A stretch of DNA of 44,537 nt, from NCBI GenBank assembly GCA_034027115.1, contig GCA_034027115.1_4703.1; one strand, given 5' to 3'. The position numbers and the translations under genes are program-made. This DNA is from a phage. A model generated the notes under the pieces. It did no database searches and was not told the DNA's origin. It saw only the letters and a list, made by a program, of their open reading frames with translations. Numbering within the stretch: position 1 is the first letter of the stretch; every line of letters begins with the position of its first letter. Positions 1,358 to 42,185 of the stretch are shown one piece after another.

Positions 1358-3409
1358 ATGCTTCAAAGACTAGGGGCTTCCTTGGTGAAGTTCAAGAGTA
1401 AACTCGCTGGTGCCATCGAACGTATACTCTCAGACAAGTTAATGGACACTGTAAGCGTTAAAGATTTTGGCGCTAAAGGAGATGGTATCTCAGATGATAC
1501 TGCTGCTTTCAAAGCAGCAATAACTTGTGGCGCATCTCGTGTATTAGTACCTGCTGGTAGGTATGTGATTACTGACACCCTTTCTTTGCCATCTGGGGTC
1601 TGGTTATTGGGTGAGGGTGTTGACTATTGGGATACCTATCGTCCAGACGAGGGTAGGCTTATTAAGTCATGGAGTAAAGGAACGCACCTTGTGTTCACTG
1701 GCAGTGGGCCTAAAAACAAGCAATTTCTTAATATCTCTAATGAACGCCCAACAAAGACAATAAATAAAGTAACCTGCTCTTTTACCGACTTCACCAATAG
1801 TGATGCACAAGCAACAAAACCTGCTACACCACGTAGTATGAGTATTGCTGTATCAGTACAGGCAGGCAGTGGCTTACGCGATCTTCGTATTATGGTAAAC
1901 AATGAAGGTATCTCTGGTTACAATGACTTTGTTTCTACAAACAAGCTAGGTGACAACTGGGATATTGGGTTGCATGTATATGACAGCTCAGATGCTGTAA
2001 TTGATAATGTGCAAGTTGTTGGCTATTGGAGGGTTGCAGGTACACTCTTAACGGAGAACGACGGCTCCATCACAATGCGTGGTAATCCAGAGAAGACACT
2101 ATTTAATAAGTTCTACACTCAAGGTATCAGAGGTTTACTTATTAGGAATAGCCCACAAGTAGATGTAGTATCTCAAGAGTCAGCAACCAAGTTAACCATT
2201 AAAGCGAATGCTACGTCCCGTATATTAGCACAAAATGGTTTTCGAGTAGCAGGTAGTACTACGATACATAGATGGACTAGTGTTACAAGACAAGGAGACA
2301 CTTATGTATTAGATGGCATCACACCTGCGTTACCTTCTGCTTCTGACCTCGGGGTTGTTCATTTCCCATCTATGGGTAACAATTGGTCTGGTACAGTGTT
2401 CAACAATACTGTTGCTGTGTCCTTTGAGCACTCATCCGGTAGCACCTCAAGACAACTAGGACTTCCTGTATCTTTTGCTATGGAGATTGATGGCTTCCCT
2501 TGTCGTAACCTCAAGTTCATAAACTTCAAGGCACAGACTTCTTACGATGAAGGAAATACATTGTTTGGTGATATGCGCGATGCCAAGTTTGTGGCTAGTG
2601 AGTTCGAGAATGGTAGGTTGATTGCGTACGATTTGTCTCAGACCCAAGGGTACACTGGGAATATGCGGTCTGCTGTGTCTGACATGCAGTTTCATTCTAC
2701 TAATATTGAGGGCTTCACACCACGTGATTTCTTCTATGACCTAGGACACTTTCCTACTTCTTACACTGATGGTTCTTTTATCATGAAGCATTGGAGAGAA
2801 AAGGATTTACAGGTACAATGGTATAATGGTAAAGCATTCATCCGTCTACATGAAGATGATGGCCGTGTAACACTTACCAGTAAAGATGGTCTAGATTTGT
2901 ATAACTTTAGTTCTACAAAAGACGTGACGTTCAATGGTCGCAATTTTGTATTCAAAAACGATGTAAGTGAAGACGTATTGAAGTGGTTTGGCGGTTCAGG
3001 GGATATCTCTACGAAAGGCAACATCTCGCCTATGGTAGATGGGACTGCCTCTCTGGGTACAAATTTCTATCGCTGGGGCGCAGTGCATTCAGTAAATGGG
3101 ACGTTACAAACCTCTGACGGTAGGCTAAAGGAGATCCATGATATTAAACAAGAAGAACTTGATGCGGGGATTGCATTATCAGCAAGTCTAATCAAGTACC
3201 GTTGGTATGGAGAAGAAAAGTTCCACTTTGGTTGTATTGCCCAAGAGGTAATGTTAATCATGGAGAAACATAATCTAGACCCATTACAGTATGGAATGGT
3301 GCAGTATGATGAAGAGGCAGACATCTTTAGTGTAAACTATGCTGAATTGAACAGCTTCTGCATCGCAGCTCTGTCTAGGAGGTTGAATGCCATTAATCAA
3401 ATCAGTTAA
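1358..3409 (+). CDS. Tailspike protein (683 aa) with pectate-lyase-like right-handed beta-helix and C-terminal intramolecular chaperone domain; probable capsule/LPS depolymerase.
   Basis: SD AAAGGAGG 7 nt upstream of ATG. N-terminal VKDFGAKGDGISDDTAAFKAAI...VPAGRYVI motif typical of pectate-lyase-fold tailspikes. C-terminal TSDGRLKEIHDIK...FHFGCIAQEV chaperone motif. Confidence 0.85.
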   Translation: MLQRLGASLVKFKSKLAGAIERILSDKLMDTVSVKDFGAKGDGISDDTAAFKAAITCGASRVLVPAGRYVITDTLSLPSGVWLLGEGVDYWDTYRPDEGRLIKSWSKGTHLVFTGSGPKNKQFLNISNERPTKTINKVTCSFTDFTNSDAQATKPATPRSMSIAVSVQAGSGLRDLRIMVNNEGISGYNDFVSTNKLGDNWDIGLHVYDSSDAVIDNVQVVGYWRVAGTLLTENDGSITMRGNPEKTLFNKFYTQGIRGLLIRNSPQVDVVSQESATKLTIKANATSRILAQNGFRVAGSTTIHRWTSVTRQGDTYVLDGITPALPSASDLGVVHFPSMGNNWSGTVFNNTVAVSFEHSSGSTSRQLGLPVSFAMEIDGFPCRNLKFINFKAQTSYDEGNTLFGDMRDAKFVASEFENGRLIAYDLSQTQGYTGNMRSAVSDMQFHSTNIEGFTPRDFFYDLGHFPTSYTDGSFIMKHWREKDLQVQWYNGKAFIRLHEDDGRVTLTSKDGLDLYNFSSTKDVTFNGRNFVFKNDVSEDVLKWFGGSGDISTKGNISPMVDGTASLGTNFYRWGAVHSVNGTLQTSDGRLKEIHDIKQEELDAGIALSASLIKYRWYGEEKFHFGCIAQEVMLIMEKHNLDPLQYGMVQYDEEADIFSVNYAELNSFCIAALSRRLNAINQIS

Positions 3410-3536
3410 GCAAAGTGCTGTACGCCAGAACACAGAAGAGCTTATTCAATCAGGACGTGACCCTAAGCAAGCTTATGCCGTTGCCAAGGATGTACAACGT
3501 CGTGCAATGAAGAAACCTTCTGCATCTTCTGCGTAA
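3387..3536 (+). CDS. Possible small basic protein (49 aa) at the genome right end.
   Basis: ATG 4 nt after GGAGG; overlaps the tailspike 3' end; too short for the ORF track; no recognisable motif. Confidence 0.2.
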   Translation: MPLIKSVKQSAVRQNTEELIQSGRDPKQAYAVAKDVQRRAMKKPSASSA

Positions 3537-3953
3537 GCAGGTTAATGTCTTAGTGTACACAAGGGCAGACCTAGGTTTGCTCTTAGTGTATTTACAATGG
3601 AGGTCTTATGTATATACCTATGGAAGCAATAGTAGGTTGCCTATGCTTGTTGATAGGTTTCGTTATAGGCTTAATAGTAGACCCTTAGTCCTGTACAAGG
3701 ATTAACCAAAGTCAAAATTTTGATATGGTCGTGTGTGAGGTGTCTCGCCCTCGCCCTCGCCGGGTTGCCCCCATAGGGTGGCCTGAGGGGATCCGTCTTC
3801 GACGGGCAGGGCTGATGTACTCCTTGTCTAGTACAAGGGAGGCGGAGGGAACGCCTAGGGATGCCTAGGGAATGTCTTAGTGGTGGACAAGGTGATTGCC
3901 TTAGTGAAGTCTCTTAGTGCATTCCTGAGGCCATTCAGGGCGTTTATGAGGGA

Positions 3954-3983
3954 TTGACAGGGTGGATGGGCGTGGGCTATCTA
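3954..3983 (+). promoter_or_regulatory. Possible host sigma70-type early promoter (TTGACA, 18-nt spacer, TATCTA).
   Basis: Perfect -35 hexamer; weak -10; lies in the genome-end region upstream of the early genes. Confidence 0.3.
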
Positions 3984-4371
3984 TTCGTTTCGCTACGCTT
4001 CACTCACTGCTCCTCACTTCGTTCGTCGCTGCGGTAGCCTGATGTGTACCTTAGGTTATTACTTGATGGATAGCTTAGGTTAGCCTTAGTGGATTACCTT
4101 AGTTAAAGCCTTAGTGCTTCACTTAGTATCAGCTTAGTAGTGTACCTTAGTAAGTATTAGTGTCTTCTCTTAGTGATTGCACATGCAAGCATGTAAGATG
4201 CCATTAGGTCGCGGTCGGTAGACCGCTAAAGAAGGAGAATAGTAATAAGATGCAGTAGGAGGAACACCAGAAACCTAGCCAACCTAGCCTATCCTAGCTC
4301 TGTATCTATTGCTTTTCCTTAGTCTAACACGTTAGACAACCTATCTTATTCTTAGTGATGGTAACTTAGTG

Positions 4372-4400
4372 TTGACAAGATAATCTTAGTGTAATACTAT
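4372..4400 (+). promoter_or_regulatory. Candidate host sigma70-type early promoter (TTGACA, 17-nt spacer, TACTAT).
   Basis: Perfect -35, 17-nt spacing, 4/6 -10 match; about 140 nt upstream of the first early ORF. Confidence 0.4.
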
Positions 4401-4543
4401 GCATCACGTAGGCGGTGCTGAGGCACCTAGTAGCCAGCTAGTAAGGCATACGAAGAGACTAGCGCTTACATTGCTCTTTAACAATTTGCTTAGTGTAACC
4501 TATGTATGCCGTGGTTAATTACTTATTGAATGAGGGATTAACT

Positions 4544-4723
4544 ATGACATTAAACAACCGTGAACTATCCGTTCTCTTCACTCTGTTGTGCTACATGATT
4601 CGTAACAACGAATTGCTTACAGATGACGAGTTGGCACTGTATCACCGCTTTCTTAACGAAGGTTGGACCGATACAGTTAATCAATACCGTAACATGATAG
4701 ATGAGTTGAGGGAGGGTAAATAA
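4544..4723 (+). CDS. Early hypothetical protein (about 59 aa).
   Basis: ATG at 4544 preceded by GAGGGA; the ORF track frame starts at 4502; no recognisable motif. Confidence 0.5.
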   Translation: MTLNNRELSVLFTLLCYMIRNNELLTDDELALYHRFLNEGWTDTVNQYRNMIDELREGK

Positions 4724-4947
4724 TGTATCAACATGAGGTATTCTTTGAATCAGCCAGCGAAGCTATTCGCTTCTTTGAAGATATGCTGCGAAATGGTGTA
4801 GGTGTGCATGTACACCATTTCCTATTAGATTATGATACTGAATATCACAAAGTTACCTTGGTATCTGAGTATGACAATCAGGTCATTAATGAGTATCTGG
4901 GTAGTGAAGATTACGATTACGATGAAGTAATCACGACAAATCTCTAA
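4723..4947 (+). CDS. Early hypothetical acidic protein (74 aa), rich in D/E/Y.
   Basis: GGGAGGG SD; ATG overlaps the upstream stop (TAATG); strongly acidic composition. Confidence 0.55.
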   Translation: MYQHEVFFESASEAIRFFEDMLRNGVGVHVHHFLLDYDTEYHKVTLVSEYDNQVINEYLGSEDYDYDEVITTNL

Positions 4948-4955
4948 ATTAACTG

Positions 4956-4984
4956 TTGACAGCCACGGCATACAAGGTTACATT
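4956..4984 (+). promoter_or_regulatory. Candidate host sigma70-type promoter (TTGACA, 17-nt spacer, TACATT) upstream of ocr.
   Basis: Perfect -35, 17-nt spacer, -10 with T1, A2 and T6 conserved. Confidence 0.45.
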
Positions 4985-5126
4985 AAGCATCAAGACGGCG
5001 ACGTCTTTAAACATCCCGCTCTTTAACAATTTGGATGGTAACTTCTTAGTCTGGATAGGTTAAACCTAGGAGATTCTCTTGAGTCTCCTATAATGTAACC
5101 TAACTAACTAAATGAGGATTAATAAC

Positions 5127-5486
5127 ATGGCTATGTCTAATATGACTTACTCTCAGGTTTACAACACCGCTCATGCTGCATTAGTTGAACGTATCTGGAA
5201 TGATGCTATTGATTGTATTGATAACGCACATGATGCAATCCATGATGTGGCGGATAGTGCTGTACCAATCTATTATGCTGACATCTTCTCCGTGATGGCG
5301 AGTGAAGGAATTGATCATTTCTTCGAAGACTCCGGCCTGATGCCAGACACTAAGGATGTAACGGTAGTCTTGCAAGCCCGTATCTATGAGCAACTCACAA
5401 TTGATCTATGGGAACGTGTTCAGTATATGATTGTTGAATACGTCAACTCCGCCGAATATTTAGAAGAAGAAGAAGAGGAAGAATAA
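5127..5486 (+). CDS. ocr: Ocr-like DNA-mimic anti-restriction protein (T7 gp0.3 family).
   Basis: Translation MAMSNMTY...[34 protein letters not shown]...[14 protein letters not shown]... closely matches T7 Ocr as I recall it; poly-Glu C-terminus; GAGGA SD 8 nt upstream of the ATG at 5127 (the ORF track start at 5112 is an upstream in-frame ATG). Confidence 0.9.
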
Positions 5487-5677
5487 GATGGAAAAGCTAT
5501 ACAACTTTATCTTTTCAGACGGTGTAACCCTGAAGTGTTCCCTACGATTCGCACAAATTCGTGAGGAAGTACTAGGCACTACATACAAACTATTTAGCTG
5601 ACACTATAAGAGAAGGCTTAACAAGGCGTTGCTACGGTAGCGCCTGATTAAACTTTCACTTACTAGGAGTTAAGACT

Positions 5678-6955: not shown

Positions 6956-9583
6956 ATGCAAGACCTACACGCTATTCAACTTCAACTTGAAGAAGAAATG
7001 TTTAACGGCGGTATCCGTCGCTTTGAAGCGGACCAACAACGCCAGATTGCATCCGGTAATGAATCAGACACGGCATGGAATCGCCGCTTATTGTCCGAGT
7101 TAATCGCGCCAATGGCTGAAGGTATTCAGGCATACAAGGAAGAGTATGAAGGTAAAAGAGGCCGTGCACCGCGTGCATTAGCTTTCATTAACTGCGTAGA
7201 AAACGAAGTGGCAGCATATATCACGATGAAAATCGTTATGGATATGCTGAACACGGATGTAACCTTGCAGGCTATAGCCATGAATGTAGCTGACCGCATT
7301 GAGGACCAAGTACGTTTTAGCAAGCTGGAAGGTCACGCCGCCAAATACTTTGAGAAAGTTAAGAAGTCACTTAAGGCAAGTAAGACTAAATCATATCGCC
7401 ATGCGCACAACGTAGCGGTCGTGGCTGAGAAGTCAGTAGCTGACCGTGACGCTGATTTCTCTCGCTGGGAGGCGTGGCCTAAAGGTACCTTGCTACAAAT
7501 TGGTATGACCTTGCTAGAAATACTGGAAAATAGTGTATTCTTCAATGGTCAGCCTGTCTTTCTTCGCACCTTGCGCACTAATGGTGACAAGCATGGCGTT
7601 TACTACTTACAGACTAGCGAACACGTGGGTGAATGGATAACTGCATTTAAAGAGCACGTAGCTCAGCTGAGTCCAGCCTATGCACCTTGCGTTATTCCTC
7701 CGCGTCCGTGGGTTTCTCCGTTTAATGGTGGCTTTCACACCGAGAAGGTGGCAAGTCGCATCCGTCTAGTAAAAGGTAACCGTGAGCACGTCCGTAAGCT
7801 GACTAAAAAGCAAATGCCAGCGGTTTATAAGGCTGTTAATGCATTGCAAGCCACTAAGTGGCAGGTTAACAAGGAAGTATTGCAGGTAGTAGAAGATGTT
7901 ATTCGTCTAGACCTCGGTTATGGTGTACCTTCCTTTAAGCCGCTCATTGACCGCGAGAACAAACCAGCTAACCCTGTTCCTCTTGAGTTCCAACACCTGC
8001 GAGGCCGTGAACTGAAAGAGATGCTAACACCGGAGCAATGGCAGGCCTTCATTAACTGGAAGGGTGAATGTACTAAACTGTATACCGCTGAGACTAAGCG
8101 CGGCAGCAAGTCGGCGGCGACCGTCCGCATGGTAGGACAGGCCCGTAAATACAGCCAGTTTGACGCTATTTATTTTGTATATGCACTGGATAGCCGTTCA
8201 CGCGTTTATGCGCAATCTAGCACGCTCTCGCCGCAATCAAACGACTTAGGCAAGGCATTGCTCCGTTTTACCGAAGGGCAGCGTCTTGATAGCGCTGAGG
8301 CGCTTAAGTGGTTTTTGGTGAACGGGGCGAATAACTGGGGTTGGGATAAGAAAACTTTTGACGTGCGCACCTCTAACGTGCTGGATGGCGAATTTCAAGA
8401 CATGTGCCGCGACATTGCAGCCGATCCGCTGACCTTCACTCAATGGGTAAATGCTGATTCCCCTTACGGCTTCCTTGCATGGTGCTTTGAATATGCGCGT
8501 TATCTGGATGCACTGGATGAAGGCACGCAAGACCAATTCATGACGCACCTACCCGTCCATCAAGACGGTAGTTGCTCTGGTATCCAGCACTATAGCGCGA
8601 TGTTACGCGATGAAGTAGGTGCGAAAGCAGTAAACCTTAAGCCTTCTGACTTCCCTCAAGATATTTATGGCGCGGTTGCGCAGGTTGTTATCCAGAAGAA
8701 TTACGCCTACATGAATGCAGACGATGCAGAGACTTTCACATCTGGAAGCGTCACACTTACAGGTGCAGAACTGCGTAGCATGGCTAGCGCATGGGGTATG
8801 ATAGGTATCACTCGCGGCTTAACCAAAAAGCCGGTAATGACCTTGCCTTACGGCTCCACCCGCTTAACCTGCCGTGAGTCAGTGATTGATTATATCGTTG
8901 ATTTGGAAGAAAAAGAGGCCCAACGAGCTATTGCAGAAGGGCGGACGGCGAATCCTGTTCACCCTTTTGATAATGACCGCAAAGATTACCTGACACCGGG
9001 CGCAGCTTACAACTATATGACTGCTTTAATTTGGCCTTCTATCTCTGAGGTTGTTAAAGCTCCTATAGTGGCGATGAAAATGATTCGCCAGCTTGCACGA
9101 TTCGCAGCTAAAAGAAACGAAGGGTTAGAGTACACCTTACCTACTGGTTTCATCTTGCAACAAAAGATAATGGCTACCGACATGCTACGCGTATCCACTT
9201 GCTTGATGGGTGAAATCAAGATGAGTCTACAGATTGAGACTGATGTAGTGGATGAAACGGCTATGATGGGCGCTGCTGCTCCTAACTTTGTTCACGGGCA
9301 TGATGCTAGTCATCTCATCCTGACTGTATGTGACCTCGTTGACAAGGGCATTACATCCATCGCAGTCATCCATGATTCTTTCGGTACTCACGCAGGCCGT
9401 ACAGCCGATCTACGTGATAGTCTAAGGGCAGAAATGGTGAAGATGTATCAAGGCCGTAATGCCCTGCAAAGCCTGTTAGATGAGCATGAAGAACGCTGGT
9501 TAGTAGACACCGGAATCCAAGTGCCAGAGCAAGGAGAGTTTGACCTTAACGAAATCTTAGTATCTGACTATTGCTTCGCATAA
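6956..9583 (+). CDS. Single-subunit DNA-dependent RNA polymerase, SP6-type (875 aa).
   Basis: N-terminus [32 protein letters not shown]... and long stretches ([81 protein letters not shown]) match SP6 RNAP as I recall it; AGGAG SD. Confidence 0.97.
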
Positions 9584-39377: not shown

Positions 39378-39572
39378 ATGATTAACTCCGAACTGGTAGA
39401 TAGTGGTGTGAAGCTTGCGCCACCTGCACTCGTATCAGGTGGGTACTTCCTCGGTATCAGTTGGGATAATTGGGTGTTAATAGCAACATTCATTTATACC
39501 GTGTTGCAAATTGGGGACTGGTTTTATAATAAGTTCAAGATTTGGAGGGAGAAGCGTGAGCGTACACAATAA
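39378..39572 (+). CDS. Holin (T7 gp17.5-like, class II).
   Basis: AAGGAGG SD; WVLIATFIYTVLQIGDWF resembles the T7 holin core (WFYVAAIAYTVVQIG); basic C-terminus. Confidence 0.75.
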   Translation: MINSELVDSGVKLAPPALVSGGYFLGISWDNWVLIATFIYTVLQIGDWFYNKFKIWREKRERTQ

Positions 39573-39855
39573 ACATGCAGCTACAGAGGACGAGGTTGGC
39601 ATTCTGCATGGTGCTATTACCAAAATCTTCAATAAGAAAGCACAGGCAATACTGGACACTATAGAAGAAGACCCTGATGCAGCATTACATTTAGTGTCTG
39701 GTAAGGATATTGGTGCGATGTGTAAGTGGGTTCTTGATAACGGCATTACCGCCACACCTGCTGCACAGCAGGAAGAGTCCAAGTTATCTAAGCGCCTCAA
39801 GGCTATCCGAGAGGCATCCAGTGGTAAGATTATTCAGTTTACAAAAGAGGAGTGA
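39556..39855 (+). CDS. Putative terminase small subunit (positional call; GTG start after GGAGGG).
   Basis: About 99-aa ORF between holin and large terminase as in T7 gene 18; no motif I can verify. A promoter-like AATACTGGACACTATAGAAGAAG lies inside at 39646..39668. Confidence 0.45.
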   Translation: MSVHNKHAATEDEVGILHGAITKIFNKKAQAILDTIEEDPDAALHLVSGKDIGAMCKWVLDNGITATPAAQQEESKLSKRLKAIREASSGKIIQFTKEE

Positions 39856-39856
39856 T

Positions 39857-40300
39857 ATGCATAGATGGTGTGAATCTCAAGGTTATACCATCTTACCTTC
39901 TGGTGTCATCCTTTCAAAGGGTGGCACCCCTCTCAAACCATTCAAGGCGGGTAGGGGTTATTTAGCAGTTAAAATTAAAAATAAAGAAGGTAAATGGCGT
40001 AATGTCTATGTTCATCAATTAGTGGCTTATAAGTATTTACCTAAAACTAATAATGAAGTAAACCACAAAGACGGCGATAAGCACAACAATGATGTTAGCA
40101 ACTTGGAGTGGGTAACAAGAAGCGAGAATAACTATTTAAAATGCAATGGAAATGATAGGAGTGCCTTAAATAGCTATTTAGCAAGATTAAAAGATTGCTT
40201 CTTGCAAGGTAAGGGTGTAGCAGAAACCGCTAGACTTACTGGTAAAAGTGAACCAAGAGTTTCTTCTCTCTTTAAGGAGTGGCGAAATGGCAAAGGCTAG
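39857..40300 (+). CDS. HNH endonuclease inserted between the terminase subunit genes.
   Basis: AGGAG SD; NHKDGDKHNNDVSNLEWVTRSEN HNH signature; overlaps the large terminase start. Confidence 0.8.
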   Translation: MHRWCESQGYTILPSGVILSKGGTPLKPFKAGRGYLAVKIKNKEGKWRNVYVHQLVAYKYLPKTNNEVNHKDGDKHNNDVSNLEWVTRSENNYLKCNGNDRSALNSYLARLKDCFLQGKGVAETARLTGKSEPRVSSLFKEWRNGKG

Positions 40301-42185
40301 AGAATCACAGGCAGAGGCATTAAAGCGGTGGGAAAACCTTAAAGAACTACAAGACACTTTTAAATATACAGCGGAAGGTTTGCTTCTCTTTGCAGATACA
40401 GTTATCCATAACTTGATTGCAGGCAACCCTCATCTGATTCGTATGCAGGCTGATATCTTGAAGTTCCTATTCTACGGACATAAGTATCGCCTCATCGAAG
40501 CGCCTCGTGGTATCGCTAAGACAACACTATCAGCAATCTATACGGTATTTCGTATTATCCACGAACCTCATAAGCGTATCATGGTTGTATCCCAAAACGC
40601 TAAGCGAGCAGAGGAAATCGCAGGTTGGGTAGTTAAAATCTTCCGTGGCCTAGACTTCCTTGAGTTTATGCTGCCGGATATCTACGCAGGGGACCGTGCA
40701 TCCGTTAAGGCGTTCGAGATTCATTACACCCTACGTGGTAGTGATAAGTCTCCTTCTGTATCCTGTTACTCAATCGAAGCAGGTATGCAAGGTGCTCGTG
40801 CGGATATTATCCTAGCGGATGACGTAGAGTCGATGCAGAATGCTCGTACGGCAGCGGGCCGTGCCTTGCTTGAGGAACTGACTAAGGAGTTTGAATCTAT
40901 CAACCAGTTTGGGGATATCATTTACCTTGGTACGCCTCAGAACGTAAACTCTATCTACAACAACCTACCTGCTCGTGGTTACTCTGTTCGTATCTGGACT
41001 GCGCGTTACCCTTCAGTAGAGCAAGAGCAATGTTATGGCGACTTCCTTGCACCTATGATTGTTCAAGATATGAAGGACAACCCAGCACTTCGCTCAGGGT
41101 ACGGGTTGGATGGTAATAGTGGTGCACCTTGTGCCCCTGAAATGTATGATGATGAAGTCCTGATTGAGAAGGAAATCTCTCAGGGTGCTGCTAAGTTCCA
41201 GCTTCAGTTCATGCTTAACACTCGCATGATGGATGCTGACAGATACCCATTACGCCTGAACAATCTAATCTTCACCTCGTTTGGTACAGAGGAAGTCCCT
41301 GTGATGCCTACGTGGAGTAATGATTCCATAAACATCATTGGTGATGCACCTAAGTATGGTAACAAGCCTACGGATTTCACGTACAGACCTGTAGCTCGCC
41401 CATACGAATGGGGTGCTGTCTCCCGCAAGATTATGTATATTGACCCTGCGGGTGGTGGTAAGAACGGAGACGAGACGGGTGTAGCCATCGTATTCCTGCA
41501 CGGCACATTCATTTATGTGTATCAGTGCTTTGGTGTACCTGGCGGATACCGAGAGTCGTCCCTGAATCGCATTGTGCAGGCCGCAAAGCAGGCGGGTGTT
41601 AAAGAGGTATTCATTGAGAAGAACTTTGGTCATGGCGCGTTTGAGGCGGTAATTAAGCCGTACTTTGAACGAGAGTGGCCTGTAACTCTGGAAGAGGATT
41701 ACGCCACCGGACAGAAAGAGTTGCGTATCATTGAGACGCTGGAGCCGCTCATGGCAGCACATAGGCTTATCTTCAATGCAGAGATGGTGAAGTCAGACTT
41801 TGAGTCGGTACAGCACTATCCGCTTGAACTACGCATGTCCTACAGTCTTTTCAATCAAATGTCGAACATAACGATTGAGAAGAACAGCCTCCGGCACGAT
41901 GACCGCCTAGACGCCCTGTATGGCGCTATACGGCAATTAACTTCTCAGATAGACTATGACGAGGTTACACGGATTAATCGCCTCAGAGCGCAGGAGATGC
42001 GCGATTACATCCATGCTATGAATACACCTCATCTACGCAGGGCAATGCTATATGGAGATTACGGTACTGAGCGAAGAGTGACCAACACTTCCGTAGCGAT
42101 GCAGCAGCGAGTTTACGGGCAGAACTACCGAAATAAATCGGCAAGCAGAAATACACTTTCTGCAAGGATTTCAAGGACTTATTAA
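40287..42185 (+). CDS. Terminase large subunit (T7 gp19-like).
   Basis: Walker A-like PRGIAKTT, ADDVES, YLGTPQ, KFQLQFMLN, IETLEPLMAAHRLIF and HDDRLDAL motifs match the gp19 family; AAGGAG SD before ATG 40287. Confidence 0.95.
   Translation: MAKARESQAEALKRWENLKELQDTFKYTAEGLLLFADTVIHNLIAGNPHLIRMQADILKFLFYGHKYRLIEAPRGIAKTTLSAIYTVFRIIHEPHKRIMVVSQNAKRAEEIAGWVVKIFRGLDFLEFMLPDIYAGDRASVKAFEIHYTLRGSDKSPSVSCYSIEAGMQGARADIILADDVESMQNARTAAGRALLEELTKEFESINQFGDIIYLGTPQNVNSIYNNLPARGYSVRIWTARYPSVEQEQCYGDFLAPMIVQDMKDNPALRSGYGLDGNSGAPCAPEMYDDEVLIEKEISQGAAKFQLQFMLNTRMMDADRYPLRLNNLIFTSFGTEEVPVMPTWSNDSINIIGDAPKYGNKPTDFTYRPVARPYEWGAVSRKIMYIDPAGGGKNGDETGVAIVFLHGTFIYVYQCFGVPGGYRESSLNRIVQAAKQAGVKEVFIEKNFGHGAFEAVIKPYFEREWPVTLEEDYATGQKELRIIETLEPLMAAHRLIFNAEMVKSDFESVQHYPLELRMSYSLFNQMSNITIEKNSLRHDDRLDALYGAIRQLTSQIDYDEVTRINRLRAQEMRDYIHAMNTPHLRRAMLYGDYGTERRVTNTSVAMQQRVYGQNYRNKSASRNTLSARISRTY

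What the first reader, a model, noticed from the sequence alone, without database searches (positions are those of the whole stretch)
3872..4500. Genome-end noncoding region with a dispersed CTTAGTG motif array, a CCCTCG triplet and host-type promoters
The only ~1 kb stretch without ORFs holds at least 12 copies of CTTAGTG/CCTTAGT at irregular 10-30 bp spacing, a GC-rich island with CCCTCGCCCTCGCC (about 3745..3760), and two to three TTGACA-N17/18 promoter candidates. This is the expected architecture of a T7-supergroup left end (terminal repeat, repeat arrays, strong early host promoters) and probably carries the packaging/concatemer junction signals.
Basis: partly seen in the sequence, partly recalled or inferred. 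Interest (0 to 1): 0.5.

Follow-up and report, generated by a model that had tools for sequence, protein, structure and literature searches.

The report
K1-5-type phage genome end region
This non-coding stretch is the ordinary, already described genome end (concatemer junction plus early control region) of a K1-5/SP6-like T7-supergroup coliphage, sitting mid-window only because the assembly is circularly permuted with its terminal repeat collapsed to one copy.

Summary
CTTAG(T(G)) occurs 20 times on the + strand and never on the - strand in 3540-4500, against about 1.3 expected. The TCTCGCCCTCGCCCTCGCC island and one strong sigma-70 promoter are also present.

The window is a Vectrevirus (K1-5-like) genome, 94% identical to deposited phages. 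Six GenBank records begin at the base matching window 3743-3745. K1-5 has an exact 234-bp terminal repeat and SP6 a 174-bp one. Both end on the A of ATCTGTT, the phage-polymerase class II pause heptamer, which sits at this boundary in T7 and T3 too. By homology the terminal repeat is 3743-3979, present once.

Its layout parallels T7:
- three motif copies before the repeat and three inside it
- nine phased copies after it, about 12 bp apart over 101 bp
- a conserved block, then promoter P1 (4372-4400) and an rrn-type boxA (4473)
- a second promoter-boxA pair (4956, 5018) ahead of the ocr-like gene

Across 12 relatives the motif columns are almost invariant while spacers drift. This implies selection, probably for a packaging-related binding site, but that function is untested even in T7.

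The only oddity is a private G-to-A change in the pause heptamer (ATCTATT).

The parts
3549..3690 (+). Three CTTAG copies (3549, 3582, 3684) left of the terminal repeat. They correspond to the short repeats left of T7's right-hand terminal repeat and overlap the last small ORFs.
   Evidence: K1-5 and SP6 also have three copies within about 230 bp before their right-end repeat copy, and T7 has CCTAAAG at 39671 and 39700 before its repeat at 39778.
3706..3742 (.). Conserved block just before the repeat, holding the perfect 12-bp palindrome TCAAAATTTTGA (3712-3723). It ends at the predicted left-end cleavage point.
   Evidence: Nearly identical sequence precedes the right-end repeat copy in K1-5 and SP6.
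3743..3979 (+). Direct terminal repeat, 237 bp, present once because the assembly collapsed it. It starts TCTC + (CTCGCC)x3, holds CCCCCATAGGG at 3768-3778 and three CTTAGTG copies at 3876, 3900 and 3913, and ends ...GGGCGTGGGCTA.
   Evidence: K1-5 position 1 matches window 3745; EEc4, EEc2 and R4596 match 3743; VEc3 and Ro_P3a match 3744. The exact K1-5 repeat is 234 bp and ends ...GGGCTA; SP6's is 174 bp. Only one copy is in the window. T7, T3, K1F and SP6 also start TCTC, and T7 has CCCATAGGG at 28.
3954..3995 (+). Most conserved block at the right edge of the repeat: TTGACAGGGTG...GGGCGTGGGCT-ATCTATT-CGTTTCG. It is the candidate right-end processing signal. Its TTGACA lacks a usable -10 element.
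   Evidence: TTGACA lies 25 nt before the heptamer in 9 of 12 relatives carrying both elements (26, 29 and 40 nt in the others; L010 has TTGACT). No -10 element was found.
3979..3985 (+). Class II (HATCTGTT-type) phage-polymerase pause heptamer at the repeat boundary. Here it reads ATCTATT, a private G-to-A change at 3983.
   Evidence: ATCTGTT starts at K1-5 234 (repeat 234), SP6 174 (repeat 174), Ro_P3a 284 (annotated repeat 283), T7 161 (repeat 160) and T3 232 (repeat 231). Nineteen of 19 relatives have G; the window alone has A. Consensus from PMC11347151.
4050..4175 (+). Main short-repeat array to the right of the repeat. CTTAGG at 4050 and 4074; CTTAGT at 4085, 4098, 4110, 4122, 4133, 4146 and 4169; degenerate ATTAGTG at 4157. 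Nine of these, starting with the CTTAGG at 4074, are phased at about 12 bp over 101 bp (4074-4174).
   Evidence: In 12 aligned relatives the motif columns have a mean majority frequency of 0.98 (34 of 42 invariant) against 0.80 for spacers (8 of 50 invariant), Mann-Whitney P=3e-11. Array length is 92 nt in the nine K1-5/K1E-type sequences and 88-89 in SP6, L010 and L037.
4176..4345 (+). Highly conserved non-coding block of unknown role. It holds TAAGATGC twice (4194-4201, 4246-4253), the hairpin GCGGTC-GGTA-GACCGC (4211-4226), CCTAGC three times (4274-4298), a second ATCTATT (4304-4310), CTTAGT at 4318, and the inverted repeat GTCTAAC-AC-GTTAGAC (4322-4337).
   Evidence: Near-invariant across K1-5, K1E, SP6 and the metagenomic relatives. 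No Rfam match. No phage-polymerase promoter core.
4351..4400 (+). Early host-type promoter P1: -35 TTGACA at 4372-4377, 17-nt spacer, -10 TACTAT at 4395-4400. CTTAGTG copies at 4351, at 4365 (abutting the -35) and at 4385 (in the spacer).
   Evidence: 10 of 12 matches. The -35 is invariant in 12 of 12. The -10 sequence differs between lineages (TACTAT, TACATT, CATAAT, TATTAT) but stays a valid hexamer at N16-17. The same scan recovers the annotated T3 A1-A3 -35 hexamers exactly (443, 572, 683) and gives three hits upstream of the annotated T7 A1-A3 sites (498, 626, 750).
4414..4427 (+). Leader hairpin GGTGC-TGAG-GCACC in the P1 transcript.
   Evidence: Ro_P3a and L004 have AGCAC-TGAG-GTGCT, three compensatory pair changes. 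It is part of the minimum-energy fold.
4472..4495 (+). rrn-type boxA (TGCTCTTTAACAATTTG) followed directly by a CTTAGTG copy at 4489.
   Evidence: Exact GCTCTTTAACAA at 4473 and 5018 only. Present in 11 of the 12 aligned sequences, absent only from L028. boxA is at T7 814, T3 782 and K1F 670.
4544..4723 (+). First gene, the K1-5 gp1 homologue. It marks the right limit of the non-coding end region.
   Evidence: phrog_9275, E=2e-40. K1-5 CDS 781-960 is the same 180 nt.
4956..5029 (+). Second early promoter P2 (TTGACA-N17-TACATT, 4956-4984) and its own boxA (5018-5029), upstream of the ocr-like gene at 5127-5486.
   Evidence: The same promoter-plus-boxA pairing is found in K1-5, K1E, Ro_P3a and PM116.
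39511..42185 (+). Trans-acting packaging genes: small terminase of the T7 gp18 family (39511-39855) and large terminase (40248-42185), with an HNH endonuclease ORF between them.
   Evidence: phrog_891, phrog_17672 and phrog_59. Pfam PF11123 DNA_Packaging_2.

Best explanation
Shown by homology. Window 3540-4545 is the concatemer junction plus early leader of a K1-5-like (Vectrevirus, Autographiviridae) phage. The virion DNA is linear, starts at 3743 (TCTCGCC...), and carries a direct terminal repeat of about 237 bp (3743-3979) at both ends. The assembly is circularly permuted and holds the repeat once.

Inferred from T7. Replication gives head-to-tail concatemers with one repeat per junction. 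Phage RNA polymerase reading rightwards out of the late genes pauses at the HATCTGTT-type site that straddles the right edge of the repeat. Terminase (small subunit 39511-39855, large subunit 40248-42185) then cuts there and at 3742/3743, and the repeat is duplicated.

The motif copies. The strictly one-directional CTTAGT(G) copies number three before the repeat, three inside it, a phased nine-copy array after it, and stragglers around P1 and boxA. They are the Molineuxvirinae counterpart of T7's CCTAAAG arrays. Most likely they are lineage-specific binding or phasing sites for a packaging protein at the junction. I put this at about 0.4; it is inferred and not tested in any member.

On infection the left end enters first. 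E. coli RNA polymerase starts at P1 (4372-4400, about 630 bp from the end) and at P2 (4956-4984). Each transcript carries an rrn-type boxA, probably giving Nus-dependent antitermination, and expresses the early genes including the ocr-like anti-restriction protein.
For: Identity of the window:
- 94% identical to Vectrevirus genomes and 95% to K1-5 from its base 1.
- A T7-type RNA polymerase and a gp18-family small terminase are present.

Position of the end:
- Six records begin at window 3743-3745.
- K1-5 has an exact 234-bp repeat and SP6 a 174-bp one.
- The window has a single copy.
- Window start and end are contiguous inside a K5-lyase gene in relatives.
- Short-read assemblers are documented to collapse and misplace such repeats (PMC10438801).

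The pause heptamer:
- It sits at the repeat boundary in five phages whose repeats are 160-283 bp long.
- A polymerase pause at the junction is linked to packaging in T7/T3 (PMC3276506). The class II consensus is given.

The motif:
- Enrichment and strand bias.
- It is the top k-mer in K1-5, EEc4, SP6, K1E and the Raoultella phage, and among the top k-mers (CTTAGT top 6-mer, CCTTAGT top 7-mer) in Proteus phage PM116.
- Motif columns are invariant, spacers drift, and phase is kept.
- T7 has 11 one-directional CCTAAAG copies, three of them in its repeat and a run at 13-bp period.

Promoters and boxA:
-, with T3 (exact -35 match) and T7 as positive controls.
Against: - No read or terminus data exist for this genome, so the end is placed by homology only.
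- One experimentally mapped relative, UAB_Phi78, is annotated with its repeat starting 16 nt further left and ending 10 nt before the heptamer. The exact cut sites therefore carry an uncertainty of about 10-16 nt.
- The window's heptamer is ATCTATT, not the strictly conserved ATCTGTT. Pausing may be weakened, or the base may be an error.
- No exact phage-promoter core lies between 43866 and the repeat (about 4.4 kb), unlike T7's phiOR about 550 bp upstream.
- No experiment in any T7-group phage, to my knowledge, assigns a function to the short-repeat arrays.
Confidence: 0.85

Rival explanations
1. The CTTAGT(G) copies act in genome entry or early transcription rather than packaging. For example, they could bind E. 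coli RNA polymerase, a host nucleoid protein or an early phage regulator that holds or silences the leading end.
For: Copies abut the -35 of P1 (4365), sit in its spacer (4385) and follow boxA directly (4489); the copies at 4365 and 4489 are each kept in 10 of 12 relatives. T7 promoter A1 likewise has a motif-like TAAAG at 468, inside its spacer.
Against: Fifteen of the 20 copies lie 200-820 bp upstream of P1, and three lie left of the repeat, that is, at the right genome end, which enters last. The spacer copy at 4385 is kept in only 4 of 12 relatives. The motif resembles no host-factor consensus I know (own knowledge).
Confidence: 0.15
2. The arrays serve replication, as a secondary origin, as primase start sites or in end replication at the genome terminus.
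For: T7's left end holds a secondary origin linked to promoter phiOL (own knowledge; phiOL is annotated at 405). The arrays flank the repeat that mediates concatemer formation.
Against: There is no phage-polymerase promoter core anywhere in 3400-5500 and no AT-rich unwinding stretch (GC 0.42-0.49). The motif lacks the GCA triplet that I recall as the SP6 primase recognition site (own knowledge, not checked).
Confidence: 0.07
3. The repeats are functionless products of slippage or a by-product of base composition.
For: Short tandem-like units can arise by slippage. Tandem Repeats Finder reports a 24-bp period array at 74% match.
Against: Local dinucleotide shuffles give 2.55 +/- 1.5 copies against 20 observed. 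The strand bias is 20:0. Motif columns are invariant while spacers diverge, and phase is kept, across three genera.
Confidence: 0.03
4. In this particular phage the region is an internal intergenic control region, and the genome is packaged differently (headful or cos).
For: It lies mid-record with a single copy, and no read data are available.
Against: Six related records start at the homologous base and carry exact terminal repeats. Terminal repeats were shown by Bal31 digestion and run-off sequencing in UAB_Phi78 (PMC4837284). The terminase genes are of the T7 type.
Confidence: 0.03

Closest known systems
Left end / concatemer junction of phages K1-5 (AY370674) and SP6 (AY288927), Molineuxvirinae
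   Same: Homologous sequence: 95% identity to K1-5 from its base 1. Same terminal TCTC(G)CC repeat start, same CTTAGTG arrays in the same positions and phase, same conserved block, same P1 and boxA.
   Different: Here the repeat is collapsed and the record is permuted. There is a private G-to-A change in the boundary heptamer, and one array copy is degenerate (ATTAGTG at 4157). The variable spacer at 3986-4040 differs.
Phage T7 left end (NC_001604): 160-bp terminal repeat, CCTAAAG short-repeat arrays on both sides, class II pause site at the concatemer junction, promoters A1-A3, boxA before gene 0.3
   Same: Same order of parts. Starts TCTC and has CCCATAGGG near the end. Has three motif copies in the repeat, ATCTGTT at the repeat's right edge, a phased one-directional heptamer array after it (13 bp against 12 bp), strong sigma-70 promoters within about 750 bp of the end, and boxA before the ocr gene.
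   Different: The heptamer differs (CCTAAAG against CTTAGTG). T7 has a phage promoter (phiOL) in the region and three clustered host promoters with one boxA. Here there is no phage promoter, and there are two separate promoters, each with its own boxA.
Small-terminase recognition arrays of other phages (lambda cosB R sites, SPP1 pac boxes). Analogy only, from own knowledge.
   Same: Several short repeated sites lie next to the terminase cleavage site.
   Different: No binding of a T7-gp18-type small terminase to these heptamers has been shown. The repeats here are 6-7 bp at a 12-bp period and also occur inside the terminal repeat.
rrn / lambda boxA antitermination elements
   Same: TGCTCTTTAACAATTT equals the rrn-type boxA core as I recall it (own knowledge). 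It lies 26-65 nt downstream of each early promoter start.
   Different: Function was not tested here. No clear boxB or boxC partners were defined.

Membership tests
T7-supergroup (Autographiviridae) genome end / concatemer junction | Phage with a single-subunit RNA polymerase and T7-type terminase genes | tested here: met
   PF00940 and PF14700 on 6956-9583; PF11123 (gp18 family) on 39511-39855; large terminase phrog_17672.
T7-supergroup (Autographiviridae) genome end / concatemer junction | Non-permuted linear genome with an exact short direct terminal repeat | not testable with these tools
   Only a collapsed single copy is in the window. Inferred from K1-5 (234 bp), SP6 (174 bp) and six records that start at the homologous base.
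T7-supergroup (Autographiviridae) genome end / concatemer junction | Class II pause heptamer HATCTGTT at the right boundary of the repeat | tested here: inconclusive
   The homologous site at 3979-3985 reads TATCTATT, 6 of 7 heptamer bases. Nineteen of 19 relatives plus T7 and T3 have ATCTGTT, and K1F has ATCTGTA.
T7-supergroup (Autographiviridae) genome end / concatemer junction | One-directional short-repeat arrays flanking and inside the terminal repeat | tested here: met
   Twenty + strand and no - strand copies: three before, three inside, nine phased after the repeat. The T7 equivalent is shown.
T7-supergroup (Autographiviridae) genome end / concatemer junction | Strong host sigma-70 promoters within the first ~850 bp, followed by boxA and an early anti-restriction gene | tested here: met
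   Met by sequence only. P1 is 630 bp from the end, boxA is at 4473, P2 and boxA at 4956 and 5018, and the ocr-like gene at 5127-5486. Promoter activity is not testable here.
Vectrevirus (K1-5-like) left end | Nucleotide homology across the whole end region to K1-5-type genomes | tested here: met
   94.0% over 1201 nt to Vectrevirus T147P9 and 95.1% to K1-5 positions 1-837.
Iteron-type replication origin | 17-22-bp iterons next to an AT-rich stretch and an initiator gene | tested here: not met
   The repeat core is 6-7 bp at a 12-bp period. GC content is 0.42-0.49. The neighbouring genes are small early genes and tail spikes.
Known structured RNA family (Rfam) | Covariance-model match | tested here: not met
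   No match at E<=1 in 3300-5300.

The most novel reading that the evidence does not exclude
The nine phased CTTAGT(G) copies (about 12 bp apart, about 101 bp in all) to the right of the repeat, with the flanking copies, could be the wrapping or nucleation site for the ring-shaped gp18-type small terminase. They would then set packaging specificity in Molineuxvirinae, with T7's 13-bp-phased CCTAAAG arrays as the counterpart. That would give a function to repeat arrays which, as far as I know, have had none since the T7 sequence was published.
Probability: 0.3. Interest if true: 0.45.

Novelty: already known. Interest (0 to 1): 0.15.

Why it matters
The main value is for annotation. The true genome start is 3743, the record is permuted, and it lacks its second terminal-repeat copy. 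ORF calls inside 3725-4500, which several related GenBank records carry, are probably spurious.

Beyond that, the comparison gives a clean, testable picture of the short-repeat arrays at T7-group genome ends. The heptamers are invariant, one-directional and phased at 12-13 bp, and their sequence is specific to each lineage. Their function is still unassigned. The private change in the otherwise invariant pause heptamer offers a natural variant for testing whether the polymerase pause is needed for concatemer processing.

Tried and rejected
- **Rfam scan of 3300-5300 at E<=1:** nothing found.
- **Array motif as a decoy for the phage-polymerase promoter:** the window's promoter consensus is ATTTACTGGACACTATAGAAG, with 11 exact cores and none in 3400-5500. 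From memory, the SP6 promoter upstream half differs from the K1-5 type (not checked here). SP6 nevertheless has the identical CTTAGTG motif, so there would be no co-variation. Rejected.
- **TTGACA at 3954 as an early promoter:** it is conserved, but no -10 element sits at N16-18. It is kept as part of the conserved junction block, not as a promoter.
- **A sigma-70 promoter at TTGCAC...TAAGAT (4178-4199):** the spacing is only about 10 nt. Rejected.
- **Primase-site idea:** the motif lacks the SP6 primase triplet as I recall it (own knowledge). Not pursued.
- **Leader RNA fold of 4405-4545:** z-score is only -1.4, so no claim is made beyond the small hairpin with compensatory changes.
- **IMG/VR scan with the 15-mer GTGGGCTATCTRTTC:** mostly unrelated hits. 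It needed filtering by downstream CTTAG count.
- **Original SP6 and K1-5 genome papers (Dobbins 2004, Scholl 2004) and the K1F paper:** not held in the library. Full-text searches for CTTAGTG, CCTAAAG and SRL/SRR found nothing relevant. What those papers say about the repeats could not be checked.

Full report
**What the window is.** Region 3400-4600 is 94.0% identical over its full length to Vectrevirus T147P9. From base 3745 onward it is 95.1% identical to positions 1-837 of phage K1-5. The window encodes a T7-type single-subunit RNA polymerase (6956-9583), a gp18-family small terminase (39511-39855), a large terminase (40248-42185) and an ocr-like protein (5127-5486). Its first and last bases lie inside a K5-lyase tail-spike gene that is continuous in relatives, apart from about 44 nt missing at the junction. 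The window is therefore an almost complete, circularly permuted K1-5-like genome.

**Checking the observation.**
- CTTAGTG occurs 21 times in the window against 7.9 expected, and 12 of these are on the + strand between 3549 and 4495.
- CTTAGT has 18 + strand copies there.
- The core CTTAG has 20 + strand copies and no - strand copies in 3540-4500. The density elsewhere predicts 1.26. Local dinucleotide shuffles give a mean of 2.55 and a maximum of 8. No other window of the same size exceeds 5.
- The TCTCGCCCTCGCCCTCGCCGGG island is at 3743-3764.
- One strong sigma-70 site lies in the stated span (TTGACA-N17-TACTAT, 4372-4400), and a second lies at 4956-4984. The TTGACA at 3954 has no usable -10 element.

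One correction: the core array is regular, with nine copies from 4074 to 4174 at a mean spacing of 11.9 bp.

**Where the genome end is.** GenBank records K1-5, EEc4, EEc2, R4596, VEc3 and Raoultella phage Ro_P3a all begin at the base matching window 3743-3745. The first 234 bases of K1-5 are repeated exactly at its right end, and the first 174 bases of SP6 likewise. Both repeats end ...GGGCGTGGGCTA. By alignment the window's terminal repeat is 3743-3979, and BLAST finds no second copy. Short-read assemblers are documented to collapse such repeats and to linearise T7-like genomes mid-genome (PMC10438801). One caveat: the experimentally mapped relative UAB_Phi78 is annotated with its repeat shifted 16 nt left at the start and 10 nt short of the heptamer at the end (methods in PMC4837284). 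The exact cut sites therefore carry about 10-16 nt of uncertainty. T7, T3, K1F, SP6 and EEc4 all start TCTC, which favours 3743.

**The repeat boundary.**

| Phage | Repeat length (bp) | Position of ATCTGTT |
|---|---|---|
| K1-5 | 234 | 234 |
| SP6 | 174 | 174 |
| Ro_P3a | 283 (annotated) | 284 |
| T7 | 160 | 161 |
| T3 | 231 | 232 |

In each phage the heptamer ATCTGTT starts at the last base of the repeat or the base after it. This is the class II pause/termination signal for phage RNA polymerases (HATCTGTT followed by a T-rich run; PMC11347151). [quoted passage not shown] All 19 relatives examined have ATCTGTT. The window alone has ATCTATT at 3979-3985, and no related IMG/VR or GenBank sequence shares the change. 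K1F naturally has ATCTGTA, so some variation is tolerated.

**Anatomy and conservation.** An alignment of 12 left ends was built from K1-5, EEc4, SP6, K1E, Ro_P3a, six metagenomic relatives and the window. It shows these elements in order:
- an invariant terminal TCTCGCCCTCGCCCTCGCCGGG..CCCCATAGGG (T7 also has CCCATAGGG, at 28)
- three CTTAGTG copies in the right half of the repeat
- a conserved TTGACAG...GGGCGTGGGCTATCTGTTCG block
- a variable CT-rich spacer
- the phased array
- a near-invariant 170-bp block (4176-4345) holding a hairpin (4211-4226), TAAGATGC twice, CCTAGC three times, a second ATCTATT and an inverted repeat
- promoter P1
- a leader hairpin with three compensatory pair changes in Ro_P3a and L004
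- an rrn-type boxA followed directly by another CTTAGTG

In the array, motif columns have a mean majority frequency of 0.98 (34 of 42 invariant) against 0.80 for spacer columns (8 of 50 invariant), P=3e-11. Array length is nearly constant. CTTAGT(G) is the top-ranked k-mer of the first kilobase in K1-5, EEc4, SP6, K1E and the Raoultella phage; in Proteus phage PM116 the top 6-mer is CTTAGT and the top 7-mer CCTTAGT. In every one of them the strand bias is 11-18 to 0-2. Left of the repeat, the window, K1-5 and SP6 each have three more copies, plus a conserved block containing the palindrome TCAAAATTTTGA.

**Comparison with T7.** T7 has 11 one-directional CCTAAAG copies in its first 340 bp: three inside the repeat and a run at an exact 13-bp period after it. 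It has two more before the right-end repeat. It also has ATCTGTT at the repeat edge, promoters A1-A3 at 498-750, and boxA at 814 before the ocr gene. The window shows the same plan with a different heptamer. The differences are that no phage-type promoter lies in the region and that there are two separate host promoters, each with its own boxA (4372 and 4473; 4956 and 5018). That pairing is shared by K1-5, K1E, Ro_P3a and PM116. The simple promoter scan used here recovers the annotated T3 A1-A3 -35 hexamers exactly (443, 572, 683) and gives three hits upstream of the annotated T7 A1-A3 sites, a positive control. The -35 of P1 is invariant, while its -10 changes sequence but stays a valid hexamer at N16-17. 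That is good comparative evidence for a real promoter.

**Mechanism.**
- *Shown by homology:* this is the genome end and concatemer junction plus the early leader.
- *Inferred from T7/T3 biology:* concatemers carry one repeat per junction. The phage polymerase pauses at the boundary heptamer. Terminase cuts at both edges of the repeat, and the repeat is duplicated. On infection the left end enters first, and host polymerase starts at P1, which lies 630 bp from the end. In T7 the first ~850 bp enter without transcription (own knowledge).
- *Arrays:* their function is not established in any member, as far as I know. Their position on both sides of and inside the repeat, their strict orientation, their conserved 12-13-bp phase and their lineage-specific sequence best fit a packaging-related protein-binding array. 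The gp18-type small terminase is the obvious candidate (about 0.4). T3/T7 packaging specificity maps within 5% of the genome termini (PMC3276506), which is consistent with this.
- *Rivals:* a role in entry or early transcription, since copies abut P1 and follow boxA; a replication role; or no function. The last is contradicted by the conservation pattern.

**Verdict.** The feature is an already known architecture, homologous to published K1-5 and SP6 ends, so interest is low. The small points of note are the private change in the pause heptamer and the clean comparative signature of the still unexplained heptamer arrays.

Noticed in passing
window 3979-3985 (base 3983): The class II pause heptamer at the repeat boundary reads ATCTATT. 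All 19 related sequences examined have ATCTGTT, and none shares the G-to-A change. It is either a real private variant or a sequencing error.
   Followed up: yes
window 1 and 44537 (junction): The window starts and ends inside a K5-lyase tail-spike gene. Joining end to start aligns to relatives with about 44 nt missing (an 800-nt query spans 844 nt in two pieces), so the record is permuted and slightly incomplete at the junction.
   Followed up: partly
window 39710-40300: An HNH endonuclease ORF (phrog_59, match from residue 47) sits between the small and large terminase genes.
   Followed up: no
window 3712-3723: A perfect 12-bp palindrome, TCAAAATTTTGA, lies 19 bp left of the predicted left-end cut. 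It is conserved before the right-end repeat copy of K1-5 and SP6.
   Followed up: partly
window 4176-4345: A near-invariant 170-bp non-coding block between the array and P1. It holds the hairpin GCGGTC-GGTA-GACCGC (4211-4226), TAAGATGC twice (4194, 4246), CCTAGC three times (4274-4298), a second conserved ATCTATT (4304) and the inverted repeat GTCTAAC-AC-GTTAGAC (4322-4337). It has no Rfam match and no phage promoter, and its function is unknown.
   Followed up: partly
window 4414-4427: The leader hairpin GGTGC-TGAG-GCACC downstream of P1 has three compensatory base-pair changes in Ro_P3a and L004 (AGCAC-TGAG-GTGCT).
   Followed up: partly
window 4473-4484 and 5018-5029: Each of the two early host-type promoters is followed by its own exact rrn-type boxA (GCTCTTTAACAA). 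T7 and T3 have one boxA after three clustered promoters.
   Followed up: yes
window 4157-4163: One array unit is degenerate here (ATTAGTG) where the other 11 aligned sequences have CTTAGTG.
   Followed up: yes
L177 (UAB_Phi78, NC_020414.2) 1-190: This experimentally mapped relative is annotated with a terminal repeat at 1-180. It starts 16 nt left of the TCTC start used by SP6 and K1-5 and ends 10 nt before ATCTGTT. This discrepancy in end placement between records is unresolved.
   Followed up: partly
L164 (MZ234012.1) 703-1508, matching window about 3800-4500: Some related GenBank records annotate several 'hypothetical protein' CDSs inside the terminal repeat and the repeat array. These are probably spurious calls in non-coding DNA.
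   Followed up: no
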